Shown one piece after another: positions 55,828-62,139 of a stretch of 64,000 nt of DNA. The translations under genes were made by a program, and so were the position numbers. The stretch is from assembly GCF_009914755.1 (NCBI RefSeq), contig NC_060942.1. One strand, 5' to 3'. The notes under the pieces were generated by a model. That model was not told where the DNA came from. It saw only the letters and a program-made list of their open reading frames with translations, and ran no database searches. This stretch comes from the human T2T-CHM13v2.0 reference genome, Homo sapiens. The first letter of the stretch is position 1; every line of letters starts with the position of its first letter.

Positions 55828-55935
55828 TGAATTGATTGTTCCTCTTTGCCAATGGACAGCTCAGCATTTGAAATGCATGAAGATGCAACACAGAATAGTT
55901 TGTCTATGGGGACGATAAACACTATCTCTAGAATG
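55828..55935 (+). pseudogene. CUPIN1P: Cupin pseudogene, first coding exon (ATG 55852; MDSSAFEMHEDATQNSLSMGTINTISRM)
   Basis: Polypyrimidine acceptor TTTTCAG|55828, CCAATGG start context, donor ATG|GTAAGG, phase 0. Symbol from recall of the locus. Confidence 0.7.
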
Positions 55936-56117
55936 GTAAGGTGGGGATTTATATCTTGTGATTTGTTCCCTCCAAGACCTTACACAGAGCTCAGGCAAGA
56001 ACCCCTCTTTAGATCAGTTCTTCTTAAGTGACCCTCTTCAGAAAGATAGCGTCTCCTCTTATGAACATTTCTTGATTTGCCCCCTCTCATAAACTCTAAA
56101 CTCACACCCATTTAGCT

Positions 56118-57320
56118 CTTTTTTAAATTTTATTTTATTATTATTATACTTTAAGTTTTAGGGTACATATACACAATGTGCAGGTTAGTTACATATGTGT
56201 ACATGTGCCATGCTGGTATGCTGCACCCATTAACTCGTCATTTAGCATTAGGTATATCTCCTAATGCTATCCCTCCCCCCTCCCCCCACCCCACAACAGT
56301 CCCCAGAGTGTGATGTTACACTTCCTGTGTCCATGTGTTCTCATTGTTCAATTCCCACCTATGAGTGAGAACATGTGGTGTTTGGTTTTTTGTCTTTGCG
56401 ATAGTTTACTGAGAATGATGATTTCCAGTTTCATCCATGTCCCTACAAAGGACATGAACTCATCATTTTTTATGGCTGCATAGTATTCCATGGTGTATAT
56501 GTGCCACATTTTCTTAATCCAGTCTATCGTTGGACATTTGGGTTGGTTCCAAGTCTTTGCTATTGTGAATAATGCCGCAATAAACATACGTGTGCATGTG
56601 TCTTTATAGCAGCATGATTTGTAGTCCTTTGGGTGTATACCCAGTAATGGGATGGCTGGGTCAAATGGTATTTCTAGTTCTAGATCCCTGAGGAATCGCC
56701 ACACTGACTTCCACAATGGTTGAACTAGTTTACAGTCCCACCAACAGTGTAAAAGTGTTCCTATTTCTCCACATCCTCTCCAGCACCCATTGTTTCCTGA
56801 CTTTTGAATGATCGCCATTCTAACTGGTGTGAGATGGTATCTCATTGTGGTTTTGATTTGCATTTGTCTGATGGCCAGTGATGGTGAGCATTTTTTCATG
56901 TGTTTTTTGGCTGCATAAAAGTCTTCTTTTGAGAAGTGTCTGTTCCTATCCTTTGCCCACTTTTTGATGGTGTTGTTTGTTTTTTTCTTGTATATTTGTT
57001 TGAGTTCATTGTAGATTCTGGATATTAGCCCTTTGTCAGATGAGTAGGTTGCAAACATTTTCTCCCATTCTGTAGGTTGCCTGTTCATTCTGATGGTAGT
57101 TTCTTTTGCTGTGCAGAAGCTCTTTAGTTTAATTAGATCCCATTTGTCAATTTTGGCTTTTGTTGCCATTGCTTTTGGTGTTCTAGGACATGAAGTCCTT
57201 GCCCATGCCTATGTCCTGAATGGTAATGCCTAGGTTTTCTCCCAGGGTTTTTATGGTTTTAGGTCTAACATTTACGTCTTTAATACATCTTGAATTAATT
57301 TTTGTATAAGGTGTAAGGAA
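56118..57320 (-). mobile_element. L1PA (L1PA3-like), 3' 1.2 kb
   Basis: ORF2 C-terminal ORF 56348-57169, L1 3'UTR and poly-A. Confidence 0.96.
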
Positions 57321-57682
57321 TTAATACAATAACAAATATTGTTTTGTGAAACTTTTGTTTCAGTAGTGTGTGTGTATTTACGTGTGTGTGTGTTTGTGCA
57401 TGTATATCTGTACATGTACTGGATCACAGGGGGAAATGTATTTCTTGATGTGAATGTAGTTAAAAAAAAAAAAAGTTTGAGAAACACTGATCAAGGAAGT
57501 GTTTAATCACTTAATCCAGTGATTAAGGAAGAAATACTAATGTCTAGCAAAGCATTACTCTTAGATATATAAAGTTATATGCTATCATTTTCTTTTAAAA
57601 ATGTAAATGTGACCTTACAGTTGTGTGTAAATGTAAACTTTCCTTTGAGAATGCTGGATCATGAGTATTACATTTTAATGAT

Positions 57683-57810
57683 CTGGTTTGGTGTTGTGCA
57701 CTTGTATAGTCCCAGCTACTTGGGAGGCTGAGGCAGGAGGATCTCTTGAGGCAGGAGTTAGAGGCCAGCCTAGGCAACACAGCAACACTCGATTTCTAAA
57801 ACAAAAAAGA
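57683..57810 (+). mobile_element. Alu monomer fragment
   Basis: tagtcccagctacttgggaggctgaggcaggaggatc. Confidence 0.75.
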
Positions 57811-58325
57811 GAATTTAATGATCCTGAAATGATATGCAGTGATAGTACTTTGATTTAGTGGAATAACAGAGGAATCAGGAGAAATTCTTTCTACACCTAT
57901 AATTACAGATAATAGTGTGGCTTTCCACAAGTCATTGCTCCACCCTGGGCTTCAATTTCCTCATCAGGAAGATGAGACATAGAAGCTAAGCTGGAATCTT
58001 TAGTATTCTTTACAATGCAGCATTTCGGTGTTTATATCTTGAGGCTAGTTCCCCTTAAGACCCTTAACACAGAGCTCAGGAAAAACTCTTTAAGCCAGCT
58101 ATCATCTTAAGAAATGTAGTACCCCCTGCTCTGATCATGTCCTGATTTAACGTGAAATAATTAAAAGATACATTTTAAGTATACTTTAAAAAATAGCTCT
58201 TTTCATCATGTTTGTCAGTGAATTTTAGTTGAAGTTAGTTTAAAGAAAAATTTAAGAACCGAGAAAGGAGGCAATATTTCTAATGTGTCTTAAGTAGAGA
58301 ATAATGGCTTTCTAATTTTCCCTAG

Positions 58326-59040: not shown

Positions 59041-59247
59041 GTGTTTGACTTCCTTGATGGTACAATCCAGTGGGCCCGGTACAGGAACAATGTCAAAGAC
59101 TATCTCAGCAATGAAGAAGAGGCCTTTGGCACCAGCTTGAACAGTCAGAGATCACAAATGACTCTGGGGACACTTAGGATAAAAAGCAATGGCCTCCAGG
59201 CCCTTCACTGGCACTTCAACGCCAGTGAACATGACTGTCTTGCTCAG
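59041..59247 (+). pseudogene. CUPIN1P: Cupin pseudogene exon carrying cupin motif 1 (HWHFNASE)
   Basis: 69 open codons VFDFLDGTIQW...GLQALHWHFNASEHDCLAQ|GTATAA; the expected phase-0 acceptor reads TTTTCCGG rather than AG. Confidence 0.85.
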
Positions 59248-61359
59248 GTATAACTAGTTTGCCCACACTCTCCTCTTAAGAATCTATGTTTTTTGTCCTG
59301 AGAGTAGTATTTTAGTTGTTACAAAATCTGCTTAACTAAGAGATAGACAAACATTCAGGCTTTGGCTATATATTCAACTAGATTAGTTAGCAGTGCCTAT
59401 AAGCATTAGTCTGTTTGTTTAAATTATTTTTGGCATCACTTTGAACTCTTTTCTTCAGTATGAAATCATTTTTCACACACTATTGTTAAAATAAGATCAC
59501 TGTTTGGTCCTCTGAGCCAAAGCTAAAACCGGCAGCTCTGATCTAATGATCAAAGAAACAGCAGCTTTTCTCTAAAGAATATAACAGCAACCAGAATAAC
59601 AAAGTAGTTTGCTGTGTTCAGTCAGTCTGGAGTCTCTAAGATCAGGCCAATTGGATGCCCTTTTGTGGTTCAGACTTTTCAGAATGTTCTTGAAGTCTAG
59701 TGAAATAGAGATAGCTGGAGGTAAAATGAGTGTCCTTACTTGAATTTCAAATAATTCATTAATTCCCTAAAGTATTTATTGGCTTCCTTCTGCATTCCAG
59801 ACACTGGGGAAGCAGTAGTGACTAAGCCCTCACAGAACTTTCAGAGTTTAGTCTTTCCCTGGTGATCTAGTTAAAGACGCATAGCCAATTTTACGTGATG
59901 TTTTTGTTGTAGTTAATAAAGCCTTCTTTTTTATTCTTGGACAATGCGTTCAATTTTAGAATTTACAACAGAGAGAGAGATTAGAGTTTCCTTTATATGA
60001 GACCAAACTATTCTTTTTTTTCTTATAAGAGAACAGGAAGTCAGAGAGATTAGTTGGGTTTTCTAAAGATAAACCGTAGTCACTGGATTCACTGGGACAA
60101 AGCTCATGTTTTCTGACTTCTTGTCTTTTTCCACATAGACAAAATATGTGAAAGAGGGTAATCTCTAAAACATTCATTTTCATGGTCTTGACTGAGCAGT
60201 GGCAGAGCAATAGGAAAAAGAAAAGGCAGCTCAGTGGACTTTCCTGGGGGGAGACCCCTAAAAAGAAACTGCAAGCTAGGGAAATTCACCTGGAGCCTTC
60301 TCTAGTTGAAAATAGGCCCTGGGACCTAGCTCAGCCTGAGAAGGTTGTTCACACAATCCTGAGAGTTCATAATGTGAGCTATATGGAGTTGAATATTCTC
60401 TAGATACCCAGAAAATTGTGGGATTACTGTTTCTCACAATCAGGGTAAGAAACCAAGCAACAGGATGTGAAGAAGTCCATCTATTCCAGTCGTCCAGGGA
60501 TATTGCTTCTGCTTCTGAGTGTCTTCGTGGAAGCTTTGGAAGGGACCCTGAGAGTACGGTGGGCAAGCTGACTGGTGTGCCTGGCTTCACCACAAAGATC
60601 ACATTGACTCCCATGCTATCTCTGCTTTGTATCTGGAGTAATTGGTGCCCTGATATGAATAGGTACACATTGCTGCTGCTCCCTGCTTGTGGATGAAGAG
60701 AGAGCTCTTTAGAGGGCCACCTTTCCCCTGTATATTTAATACCCATCTGGATTCGAGTTATACATGTCTATGTAGACAGAACGAAAACTTCTTTTTCATC
60801 CGCCCCTGTGGCTGCTCCACTATGTGACCATGAGTCTCTGGTAAAACAGAAATAATGGTATCTTCTCTGCCTACCTCACGGGGTAATACTGAGGAACAGA
60901 TTAGAGAATGAGAAAGTATAGAATTTTATAGAAGCAGAATCAAAATATGGGTTAGTATGAATAAAAAGTATAGACTTTGGAGCCAGACTGCTTAAGTCCA
61001 AATCTTGGCTTTTCCATTGATTAGCTGAGTAATCTTGGGAAAATATGTTCTCTCCATAGTTTTCTTTTTTGTAAAATAGGGATAATAATATTACCATGCT
61101 TCATAGGATTGATGTAAGGAATAATCAAGCTGAATCAAGTAAAGTGATCACATGAATACCTGACATATATTAAAGGCACTACATGTTAGCTGTTATTGTT
61201 AAAATTGTATGCACACTTTTTCTTGTCTGGAAAGCACACACATATCTGTATGTATACATACACACAAACGCATACACTTGTACCTGTACAACCAACTAAG
61301 AACATGCACACATCCTCCCCAAGTGGCTTCAGTCTTTTTAAACTTTAAAATATGCAGTC

Positions 61360-61628
61360 TTTGTTTTTGTTTTGTTTTCTGAGACGGAGTTTCGCTCTTG
61401 TTGCCCAGGTTGGAGTGGAATGGCACGGTCTCCACTCACTGCAACTTCCGCCTCCCAGGTTCAAGTGATTCTCCTGCCTCAGCCTCCCAAGTAGCTGGGA
61501 TTATAGGCATAAGCCACCACGCCTGACTAATTTTGTATTTGTAGTAGAGACGAGGTTTCACCATGTTGGCCAGGCTGTTCTCGAACTCCTGACCTTAGGT
61601 GATCCACCTGCCTCGGCCTCCCAAAGTG
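61360..61628 (-). mobile_element. Alu (AluSp-like), 5'-truncated
   Basis: Alu consensus with (AAAAC)n tail. Confidence 0.93.
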
Positions 61629-61917
61629 TAAAACATGCAGTCTTAATAGGAGGTGATATTGCCCCCAAGGGGGCAACAACTTTTGAGGGAGACAAAAGTC
61701 TTACCCTTTTTATGTATAAAGAATAGATATGCATAGAGTATATAAACAATGGATTTATACGGTATACTGATCTACAGTATATGTACAGTATTAAAATTGC
61801 ATAGGGTGGTAATAGAAAAAAAGTCTAAAAGCATACCTTAAAGGGAAAGTAATGAAAAGATGTTGAGAAACATTGCTCCAAAGTGATGTTGGTTATGTTT
61901 TTCTGCTTATATTTTAG

Positions 61918-62139
61918 GGAACAGCATAGATTGGGGTGGTTGATGATGATGGTGAAGTAGTTACACGCACAGTGTTATAGCTGGCCAAGTAATCTTCTTC
62001 CCTAAAAATATACTATACTGGATAAAGAATGTGGGGAATGAAGATTGTTTTTTCTTGCTCTTCTTTTCCACACATGATGAACTTCAGACTTTGAATGTTG
62101 ATGATGTATTTTTTTCTGTAACTGAGACATTGCTTCCAG
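61918..62139 (+). pseudogene. CUPIN1P: Cupin pseudogene exon carrying cupin motif 2; nonsense and frameshift lesions
   Basis: TTTTAG|GTA*IGVVDDDGEVV/THSVIAGQVIFFPKNILYWIKNVGNEDCFFLLFFSTHDELQTLNVDDVFF; donor CAG|GTAACT. Confidence 0.87.

What the first reader, a model, noticed from the sequence alone, without database searches (positions are those of the whole stretch)
55828..62139. Decayed spliced gene encoding a germin/oxalate-decarboxylase-like metal cupin
Seen: four + strand exons with phase-0 junctions (55852-55935, 58326-58551, 59041-59247, 61918-62139). Spliced, they give GLQAL-H-W-H-FNAS-E-HDCLAQ|G and, ~20 residues later, G-QVIFF-P-KN-IL-Y-WIK-N. Established: these fit cupin motif 1 G(x)4-5HxH(x)3-4E(x)6G and motif 2 G(x)5PxG(x)2H(x)3N. 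LHWHxNAxE resembles the Mn-binding box of bacterial oxalate decarboxylase (LHWHPNADE) and germins. Inference: an intron-containing (unitary, not retro) pseudogene of a metalloenzyme class with no recognised functional human member. It is probably CUPIN1P and probably continues past 64000, possibly as a bicupin. The ORF track misses it because motif 1 crosses a 2.7-kb intron.
Basis: partly seen in the sequence, partly recalled or inferred. Interest (0 to 1): 0.85.

Follow-up and report, generated by a model that had tools for sequence, protein, structure and literature searches.

The report
Dead human gene for membrane-anchored bicupin
This is the already annotated human pseudogene CUPIN1P, the broken remnant of an ancient vertebrate gene for a membrane-anchored, two-barrel metal-binding protein related to bacterial oxalate decarboxylase, whose function in animals that still have it has not been studied.

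Summary
Exon 4 starts as stated but most likely ends at 62149, not 62139. Both cupin motifs are present.

The locus is CUPIN1P (HGNC:54490), an intron-containing unitary pseudogene. The bicupin guess is right: a C-domain exon lies in the window at 62965-63086, and two more lie beyond it.

Against the intact lemur ortholog, the human copy has:
- 5 premature stops
- 5 frameshifting indels
- a lost splice acceptor before exon 3 (AG to GG)
- no trace of 88 codons
- two metal-ligand substitutions (H209Y, H364R)

Intact orthologs of about 470 aa occur from sharks to many placentals. Each has an N-terminal CLLAC transmembrane helix and two cupin barrels. All eight metal ligands (HxH..E..H in each barrel) are kept in 40 of 40 orthologs. 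The closest solved relatives are MncA and Bacillus oxalate decarboxylase, but the protein scores below NCBIfam's cut-off for that family.

A six-frame scan of the whole human genome finds no other Cupin_1 match.

The pseudogene and its loss in human are already in print, so the finding is not new. The enzyme's substrate is unknown, and oxalate is only a hypothesis.

The parts
55852..55935 (+). Exon 1: ATG plus 28 codons, the cytoplasmic N-terminus; no lesion
   Evidence: aligns to lemur residues 1-28; donor ATG|gtaagg
58326..58551 (+). Exon 2: CLLAC transmembrane helix and stalk; 226 nt, net -8 nt, frameshift at about 58438
   Evidence: Pfam CLLAC 52.2 bits, E 4.4e-14; two tblastn pieces in different frames; frames shown
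59039..59040 (+). Lost splice acceptor of exon 3 (GG where AG is expected)
59041..59247 (+). Exon 3: 69 open codons with N-domain cupin motif 1 (HWH..E kept; R159Q, P161L, N168S and G171D at conserved positions)
   Evidence: boundaries equal the exon skipped in pig, bat and chinchilla isoforms
61918..62149 (+). Exon 4: N-domain cupin motif 2; TAG at 61927-61929 (W179), -1 nt near 61965, H209Y, -1 nt near 62121-62125, TAA at 62141-62143 (S251)
   Evidence: Pfam Cupin_1 29.2 bits; the only Cupin_1 match in the genome
62150..62964 (+). Interval that should hold the coding sequence for ortholog residues 254-341 (88 codons); none is detectable. It contains two 41-nt direct repeats at 62151-62191 and 62195-62235
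   Evidence: tblastn and profile hmmsearch --max find nothing; repeats
62965..63086 (+).
   Evidence: boundaries equal the 38-codon exon skipped in sea lion, fur seal and glider isoforms
63087..64000 (+). Start of the intron that leaves the window. The gene continues outside it. At window-scale 64517-64663 lies the exon for C-domain motif 2 (TAG at 64622-64624 for E415; P402T). At 67589-67722 lies the last exon (TAG at 67619-67621 for Q439, -1 nt near 67651, natural stop at 67720-67722, which is the annotated gene end)
   Evidence: read from L008 = G000:C18:54622001-54630000. No coding match within 63087-64000 itself apart from chance-level hits

Best explanation
The stretch is CUPIN1P, the unitary pseudogene left from an ancient jawed-vertebrate gene.

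The intact gene encodes a protein of about 470 aa with:
- a short cytoplasmic N-terminus;
- one transmembrane helix carrying the CLLAC motif;
- a stalk;
- two cupin beta-barrels (a bicupin) on the extracellular or lumenal side.

Each barrel has a complete His-x-His...Glu...His metal site with an Arg three residues before the first His, as in MncA and oxalate decarboxylase. I infer, but have not shown, that the intact protein binds two metal ions, probably Mn2+. I also infer that it is a surface enzyme acting on a small anionic substrate at the N-domain site, where His228 and Glu230 are conserved on the lid. The C-domain site would be mainly structural.

The human copy cannot make this protein. 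Every exon after the first is damaged except exon 3, which remains an open frame but has lost its splice acceptor. One 88-codon segment is gone and two metal ligands are replaced.
For: Shown:
- Exon map and lesions: 5 stops, 5 frameshifting indels, acceptor GG, 88 codons missing.
- Single locus in the genome: 7 of 7 matches lie on chr18. Six are in this gene. One is a paralogous CLLAC exon 118 kb downstream.
- Intact orthologs exist: 62 of 75 candidates, 172 of 5186 candidates at E<=1e-10 and 82 of 98. The named ones run from chimaera, rays, coelacanth and sturgeon through amphibians, reptiles, birds, platypus and marsupials to many placentals, including a lemur.
- Domain content of orthologs: Pfam CLLAC plus 2x Cupin_1, at 131 bits.
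- Conservation: all 8 ligands in 40 of 40 orthologs, R159 in 39/40, R359 in 37/40, H228 in 40/40, E230 in 38/40, the sequon N194-V-T in 39/40, and Cys219/377/413 in 40/40.
- Relaxed constraint in human: it differs at 13 of 113 positions conserved in at least 39/40 orthologs, against 0-4 in 8 of 9 placental controls.
- Structure: AF2 model of the lemur protein has pLDDT 90.1, with helix 36-66 and two barrels. Foldseek's best matches are OxdC 5vg3 (E 2.8e-29, TMt 0.76) and MncA 2vqa (TMt 0.82).
- PDB by sequence: 2vqa 2.1e-18, 1j58 6.2e-17.
- Print: HCOP paper passage (PMC8574622) and TOGA2 preprint passages.

Inferred: the type II topology, from the basic residues EKKRQW before the helix, the conserved sequon and the conserved cysteines.
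Against: - Nothing argues against pseudogene status.
- Against the enzyme part: NCBIfam bicupin_oxalic gives 152.7 bits, below its 254.2 cut-off.
- The lid is 2-3 residues shorter than in true OxdC-like sequences, and the equivalence of E230 to the OxdC lid Glu rests on sequence alignment only.
- In my reading of their motifs, the nearest non-vertebrate relatives are bicupins that no call names or links to an activity.
- One control, Fukomys P0053, also differs at 14 of 116 conserved positions, so that statistic is not specific to dead genes or is affected by poor gene models.
- The first AF2 run, with 21 close sequences, was poor at pLDDT 49.1.
- Synteny of orthologs was not checked on DNA. 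It is only suggested by source names such as 'C18orf54 homolog' and 'lung adenoma susceptibility protein 2 isoform'.
Confidence: 0.95

Rival explanations
1. The intact CUPIN1 protein is specifically an oxalate-degrading enzyme (decarboxylase or oxidase). The human pseudogene would then mark the loss of an endogenous oxalate catabolic activity.
For: - The closest solved relatives, by sequence and by fold, are OxdC and MncA.
- The ESM Atlas nearest clusters are bacterial 'oxalate decarboxylase' bicupins, with score 0.95.
- Both His3Glu sites and the Arg at -3 are kept.
- An acidic lid residue, E230, aligns beside the Glu of the MncA/OxdC lid.
Against: - It scores below the TIGR03404 cut-off (152.7 against 254.2).
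- The lid is shorter and reads (S/T)TH(D/E)E, unlike the OxdC-like FSE..T lid seen in P0123, P0130 and P0166.
- MncA was named in the PDB title only as a Mn-binding protein.
- No activity data were found for any vertebrate member.
Confidence: 0.15
2. The intact protein is a non-catalytic metal-binding or structural surface protein, like MncA or the seed globulins. The ligands would be conserved for metal binding or folding only.
For: - MncA is the top sequence hit.
- 11S and 7S globulins share the fold.
- Paralogs in lower vertebrates (P0064, P0073, P0075, P0079) persist with the ligands lost, so the scaffold has uses without metal.
Against: - Conservation in 40 of 40 orthologs of all eight ligands, plus R159, H228 and E230, over the whole of jawed vertebrates fits an active site better than a storage role.
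- Storage globulins lack these ligands (general knowledge, not tested here).
Confidence: 0.2
3. The human locus still has a function, for example as a non-coding RNA, or as a short membrane peptide made from exons 1-2, which are open for about 66 codons through the transmembrane helix.
For: - Exon 1, its donor and the exon 2 acceptor are intact, and the frame stays open through the CLLAC helix.
- The neighbouring CLLAC genes show that a CLLAC helix occurs without a cupin domain.
Against: - No expression data were available here.
- The sequence after the frameshift ends within a few codons.
- Conserved positions are decaying across the gene.
Confidence: 0.03
4. The motif matches are chance, or the locus is a processed or duplicated pseudogene rather than a unitary one.
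For: None found.
Against: - E-values down to 1e-32 per exon.
- Introns sit at ortholog exon boundaries.
- There is only one locus in the genome.
Confidence: 0.01

Closest known systems
Bacillus subtilis oxalate decarboxylase OxdC (PDB 1j58, 5vg3 and mutants)
   Same: - Bicupin fold (Foldseek E 2.8e-29, TMt 0.76).
- Sequence E 6.2e-17.
- HxH..E..H in both barrels, with Arg three residues before the first His.
   Different: - About 17-18% identity.
- CUPIN1 has an N-terminal membrane anchor and stalk.
- Its lid is shorter.
- The residue between the two His in the C-domain is Phe rather than Trp (38/40).
- It scores below the TIGR03404 cut-off.
- It is an animal protein.
Synechocystis MncA / Sll1358 (PDB 2vqa)
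   Same: - Best sequence hit (E 2.1e-18), with N-to-N and C-to-C domain correspondence.
- Best TM-score (TMt 0.82).
- The motif LHWHPNADE resembles HWHFNANE.
   Different: By its PDB title MncA is a bacterial Mn-binding protein, and I recall it as soluble and periplasmic (not from a call). It has no membrane anchor and shares 21-22% identity.
Germin / oxalate oxidase and plant 11S/7S seed globulins (Pfam Cupin_1)
   Same: - Same Pfam family, Cupin_1.
- The globulins share the bicupin fold.
   Different: - In the PDB table germin oxalate oxidase is a 201-residue chain and matched only query residues 153-257, one barrel (E 3.8e-5).
- Globulins are storage proteins without the metal ligands (general knowledge).
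DYNAP and the other CLLAC-motif genes on human chr18
   Same: - They share the CLLAC transmembrane module: 61% identity over residues 33-70 to the exon at window ~177745.
- All 4 CLLAC matches in the human genome lie within 183 kb on the + strand of chr18, and CUPIN1P exon 2 is one of them.
   Different: - No cupin match was found at the other three human loci; the one Cupin_1 match in the genome is CUPIN1P.
- The one read here carries a long Thr/Ser-rich repeat instead.
- Which of the loci is DYNAP was not verified.

Membership tests
Cupin_1 (Pfam PF00190) | HMM score above the gathering threshold (22 bits) | tested here: met
   Human exon 4 alone scores 29.2 bits, and exon 3 alone 11.7 bits (below the cut-off). 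The lemur ortholog scores 131.1 bits in 2 stretches.
Cupin_1 (Pfam PF00190) | Two-motif metal site: HxH..E in motif 1 and H in motif 2 | tested here: met
   Orthologs keep all eight ligands in 40/40. The human remnant keeps H162/H164/E169 but has H209Y and H364R.
Cupin_1 (Pfam PF00190) | Double-stranded beta-helix barrel fold | tested here: met
   AF2 model of the lemur ortholog with pLDDT 90.1. All 500 counted Foldseek matches have E<=0.001; the rows shown are OxdC, MncA and seed-globulin bicupins.
Oxalate decarboxylase family bicupin (NCBIfam TIGR03404) | Score above the curated cut-off (254.2 bits) | tested here: not met
   P0031 scores 152.7 bits. An OxdC-like control, P0123, scores 348.3 bits.
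Oxalate decarboxylase family bicupin (NCBIfam TIGR03404) | Two cupin domains, each with a His3Glu site and an Arg before the first His | tested here: met
Oxalate decarboxylase family bicupin (NCBIfam TIGR03404) | Lid Glu acting as proton donor at the N-terminal site (E162 of OxdC; residue role recalled from the literature) | tested here: inconclusive
   E230 (38/40) aligns next to the lid Glu of MncA and OxdC-like sequences, but across a 2-3 residue gap.
Oxalate decarboxylase family bicupin (NCBIfam TIGR03404) | Mn-dependent conversion of oxalate to formate and CO2 | not testable with these tools
   Needs a biochemical assay.
Unitary pseudogene | Introns retained at the positions of the functional orthologs | tested here: met
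   Exon 3 and the 62965-63086 exon equal the exons skipped in predicted isoforms of six other mammals. This is an indirect test, because no ortholog DNA was read.
Unitary pseudogene | Disabling mutations in the coding sequence | tested here: met
   5 stops, 5 frameshifts, a lost acceptor and 88 codons missing.
Unitary pseudogene | No intact copy or close paralog in the same genome | tested here: met
   The whole-genome six-frame searches find cupin exons at this locus only. The tool notes that only the best candidates are scored.
Unitary pseudogene | Intact orthologs at the syntenic place in other species | tested here: inconclusive
   Intact orthologs are shown. Synteny is suggested only by read-through names (C18orf54 homolog, LAS2 isoforms, dynactin-associated protein).
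CLLAC-motif domain (Pfam PF15675) | HMM score above the gathering threshold (25 bits) | tested here: met
   Human exon 2 scores 52.2 bits and 51.6 bits in the genome scan. Orthologs score 38-54 bits.
Germin / germin-like protein | Single cupin domain, secreted protein of about 200 aa | tested here: not met
   CUPIN1 orthologs are membrane-anchored bicupins of about 470 aa.

The most novel reading that the evidence does not exclude
Intact CUPIN1 would be a cell-surface, Mn-dependent enzyme that destroys oxalate or a closely related small carboxylate. It would be present from sharks to most mammals. Its death in the human lineage, and according to a preprint in mouse, would have removed an endogenous oxalate-degrading activity that textbooks say animals lack.

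In addition, DYNAP and the neighbouring CLLAC/mucin-like genes would be truncated tandem duplicates of this gene that lost the cupin barrels.
Probability: 0.12. Interest if true: 0.85.

Novelty: already known. Interest (0 to 1): 0.35.

Why it matters
The pseudogene itself is ordinary and already named.

The interest lies in its living orthologs. They form a strongly conserved, membrane-anchored relative of bacterial oxalate decarboxylase, and my searches of the held library found no functional study of them. The Pfam family they belong to has no other match in the human genome.

If the intact protein degrades oxalate or a similar metabolite, species differences in oxalate handling, and the relevance of mouse and human to stone disease models, would need a second look. 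The protein would also be a natural vertebrate template for oxalate-lowering therapy. That is a hypothesis, not a result.

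Tried and rejected
- First AF2 run on 21 close orthologs gave pLDDT 49.1. It was discarded and replaced by a 98-sequence alignment.
- Search for the missing 88 codons: tblastn at E up to 20 over window 55001-70000 gave only out-of-order chance-level hits (65887-65940 at E 0.85; 65612-65650 at E 5.8). Profile hmmsearch --max over 61900-63100 in six frames gave only negative scores. 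A possible upstream extension of the 62965 exon (62917-62964, FSFFF against FSEFL) is indistinguishable from a polypyrimidine tract.
- A regex for an OxdC-type lid (SE[NG][SA]T) in alignment A2 found none.
- TRF did not report the 44-nt duplication after exon 4. The repeat finder did.
- Literature: the search 'CLLAC / DYNAP' was swamped by 'dynapenia' and was useless. 'oxalate decarboxylase' with 'guinea pig liver' gave 0 papers. With 'guinea pig' it gave 9 papers, none relevant by title, and the one opened (PMC11509417, one passage) was about Oxalobacter hosts. My recollection of an old report of oxalate decarboxylase in guinea-pig liver therefore remains unverified and is not used as evidence.
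- Model coordinates are not exposed, so no distances around the metal sites were measured.
- No primate genomes other than the window's own could be searched, so the date of the loss was not determined.

Full report
**1. Observation**

The window is human chr18.

- Exon 1 (55852-55935) starts with ATG, has 28 open codons and has a gt donor.
- Exon 2 (58326-58551) has ag and gt sites and encodes a transmembrane helix that matches Pfam CLLAC (52.2 bits, cut-off 25). It is 226 nt long and changes frame at about 58438, which is net -8 nt against the 78 codons of the lemur ortholog.
- Exon 3 (59041-59247) is an open run of 69 codons ending GLQALHWHFNASEHDCLAQ. Its acceptor reads GG instead of AG.
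- Exon 4 starts at 61918. It holds a TAG at 61927-61929, a 1-nt deletion near 61965, the motif GQVIFFPKNILYWIKN, a second 1-nt deletion near 62121-62125 and a TAA at 62141-62143.
- Similarity to orthologs continues to ...DIASR*LK with the donor AAA|gtaggt, so the ancestral exon end is 62149 rather than 62139.
- Per-exon tblastn E-values reach 1e-32.
- Pfam Cupin_1 passes its threshold on exon 4 alone, at 29.2 against 22 bits. Exon 3 alone reaches 11.7 bits, at the matching profile positions.

**2. The rest of the gene**

With the intact lemur protein P0031 as probe, a further exon appears inside the window at 62965-63086. It encodes the motif 1 of a second cupin domain (NGL*QPHFRFNANEMHYVLSGCGK). 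It carries an 8-nt insertion at 63007-63014, a TGA at 63024-63026 and His364 replaced by Arg.

Reading 6 kb beyond the window from the same genome shows two more exons.
- The first is at 64517-64663, with a TAG at 64622-64624.
- The last is at 67589-67722, with a TAG at 67619-67621, a 1-nt deletion near 67651 and the natural stop at 67720-67722, which is the annotated gene end.

Ortholog residues 254-341 (88 codons) have no counterpart. tblastn and a profile search with all filters off find nothing between 62150 and 62964.

Lesions in total:
- 5 premature stops
- 5 frameshifting indels
- 1 lost splice acceptor
- 1 lost 88-codon segment
- H209Y and H364R at metal ligands

**3. Pseudogene type**

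Predicted exon-skipping isoforms of other mammals lack exactly V107-Q175 (pig, two bats, chinchilla) or exactly H342-E379 (fur seal, sea lion, sugar glider). Both exons therefore have the same boundaries as in functional genes.

A six-frame search of the whole T2T genome with the lemur protein gives 7 matches, all on chr18. Six are in this gene and one is a paralogous CLLAC exon. Pfam Cupin_1 has a single match in the genome, and it is exon 4 of this locus.

The locus is therefore a unitary, intron-containing pseudogene. The hub's annotation calls it CUPIN1P.

In print I saw two sources, both as passages only.
- The HCOP paper says that CUPIN1 of horse, dog, cat and cow are orthologs of the human pseudogene CUPIN1P, HGNC:54490 (PMC8574622).

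**4. The intact family**

Protein searches returned 62 of 75, 172 of 5186 (120 listed) and 82 of 98 candidates. Named sources include chimaera, manta and electric rays, coelacanth, sturgeon and paddlefish. They also include many frogs, salamanders and caecilians, turtles, alligator, lizards, snakes, tuatara and many birds. Among mammals they include platypus and marsupials. The placentals include carnivores, bats, horses, pigs, camels, ruminants, hippopotamus, aardvark, rabbit, many rodents and one lemur.

No teleost, lamprey or anthropoid primate is among the rows shown. This is absence in lists, not proof of loss. The one near-identical hit to human exon 3 (P0288, 99%) is an unnamed 155-aa read-through frame.

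Orthologs are about 470 aa and carry CLLAC plus two Cupin_1 domains. Identity between frog and mammal is 60-66%.

In 40 orthologs:
- All eight ligands (H162, H164, E169, H209; H362, H364, E369, H407) are kept in 40 of 40.
- R159 is kept in 39/40 and R359 in 37/40.
- W163 and H228 are kept in 40/40, and E230 in 38/40.
- The sequon N194-V-T is kept in 39/40.
- Cys219, Cys377 and Cys413 are kept in 40/40.

The human remnant differs at 13 of 113 positions that are conserved in at least 39 of 40 orthologs. Eight of nine intact placental controls differ at 0-4 such positions. One control, the mole-rat P0053, differs at 14 of 116.

**5. Fold and relatives**

- A first AF2 model from 21 close sequences was poor, at pLDDT 49.1.
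- With 98 sequences including distant bicupins, the lemur model reaches pLDDT 90.1 and pTM 0.80. It shows a helix at 36-66 and two barrels.
- Foldseek against the PDB puts Bacillus OxdC (5vg3, E 2.8e-29, TMt 0.76), MncA (2vqa, TMt 0.82) and Lactobacillus OxdC (6l9i, TMt 0.82) first. Seed globulins follow.
- By sequence: MncA 2.1e-18, OxdC 6.2e-17, glycinin 2.8e-10, germin oxalate oxidase 3.8e-5.
- NCBIfam's oxalate-decarboxylase bicupin model gives 152.7 bits, below its 254.2 cut-off. An OxdC-like bacterial control passes at 348 bits.
- In the 1.84-billion representative library, 673 proteins match at E<=0.001 and 33 at E<=1e-30. The best match that does not look vertebrate, P0098 (3.2e-29), lies just outside those 33. 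By their motifs the non-vertebrate matches are bacterial or fungal-type bicupins with a short lid (..SHE.P..ED..), not the FSE..T lid of OxdC-like sequences.
- ESM Atlas feature neighbours are bacterial 'oxalate decarboxylase' clusters at 0.95. These are a lead only.

**6. Mechanism**

Shown: the architecture, the conserved ligands, and the fold.

Inferred:
- N-in, type II topology, from the basic residues before the helix, the conserved sequon and the conserved cysteines in the barrels.
- Mn as the metal, by analogy with MncA and OxdC.
- The N-domain as the catalytic site, because H228 and E230 on its lid are conserved while the C-domain has Q428 at the matching place.

My estimates:
- About 60% that it is an enzyme of some kind. 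Within that 60%, oxalate itself is about 15% overall.
- About 20% that it is a non-catalytic metal-binding protein.
- The remaining 20% or so is left open.

**7. Novelty and score**

The pseudogene, its name, its orthologs and its loss in human are already recorded, so the finding is already known.

My searches found no functional study of the vertebrate protein:
- 'CUPIN1P': 1 paper.
- 'CUPIN1' / 'Gm36255' / 'cupin superfamily member 1': 69 papers, 20 listed. By title, all but the TOGA2 preprint concern plant, fungal or other Cupin_1 topics, none a vertebrate CUPIN1.
- 'bicupin' with 'vertebrate': 4 papers, none on a vertebrate bicupin by title or abstract start.
- Six LOC identifiers: only TOGA2.

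The held library omits most subscription journals.

Interest is modest for the human locus. It would be higher only if the enzyme hypothesis proves true.

Noticed in passing
G000:C18:54618341, 54737745, 54770108, 54800942 (window about 58341, 177745, 210108, 240942), all + strand: Pfam CLLAC has exactly four matches in the whole human genome. All lie within 183 kb on one strand of chr18, and the first is CUPIN1P exon 2. This looks like a tandem family that shares the CUPIN1 transmembrane module. One of the loci is presumably DYNAP, but that was not verified.
   Followed up: partly
L006 (G000:C18:54736245-54739358; window about 177703 onward): The CLLAC exon here, inside the annotated LOC124908007, runs on into an open frame reported as 1160 aa. 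It is made of Thr/Ser-rich, mucin-like repeats, of which 552 aa were read.
   Followed up: partly
Proteins P0064, P0071, P0073, P0075, P0079: P0064 comes from a newt, and by similarity the unnamed others are probably lower-vertebrate paralogs. P0064, P0073 and P0075 keep the CLLAC helix, and all keep at least one recognisable cupin barrel (P0075 is 37% identical to lemur CUPIN1, E 6e-98). Most metal ligands are lost, and P0073 and P0075 carry Thr/Ser-rich tails. Several are named 'dynactin-associated protein' by their source, which suggests that DYNAP-like genes descend from a CUPIN1 duplicate.
   Followed up: partly
window 62151-62191 and 62195-62235: Two 41-nt direct repeats (90% identical, spacing 44 nt) begin immediately after the exon 4 donor, in the interval where 88 codons are missing.
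   Followed up: partly
window 63115-63131: A run of 17 G lies 29 nt downstream of the 62965-63086 exon.
   Followed up: no
Protein P0053 (Fukomys damarensis): This predicted mole-rat ortholog differs at 14 of 116 otherwise conserved positions, as many as the human pseudogene. It is either a poor gene model or a gene decaying in that lineage.
   Followed up: no
Protein P0288: An unnamed 155-aa predicted protein from short contigs is 99% identical to the open frame that runs through human exon 3. It is a read-through frame, not evidence of a coding gene.
   Followed up: no
Source names: Orthologs carry inconsistent automatic names: legumin J-like, oxalate decarboxylase OxdC/OxdD-like, dynactin-associated protein, lung adenoma susceptibility protein 2 isoform, ATF-4. 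Several are read-through fusions with neighbouring genes, so the annotation of this family is unreliable.
   Followed up: no
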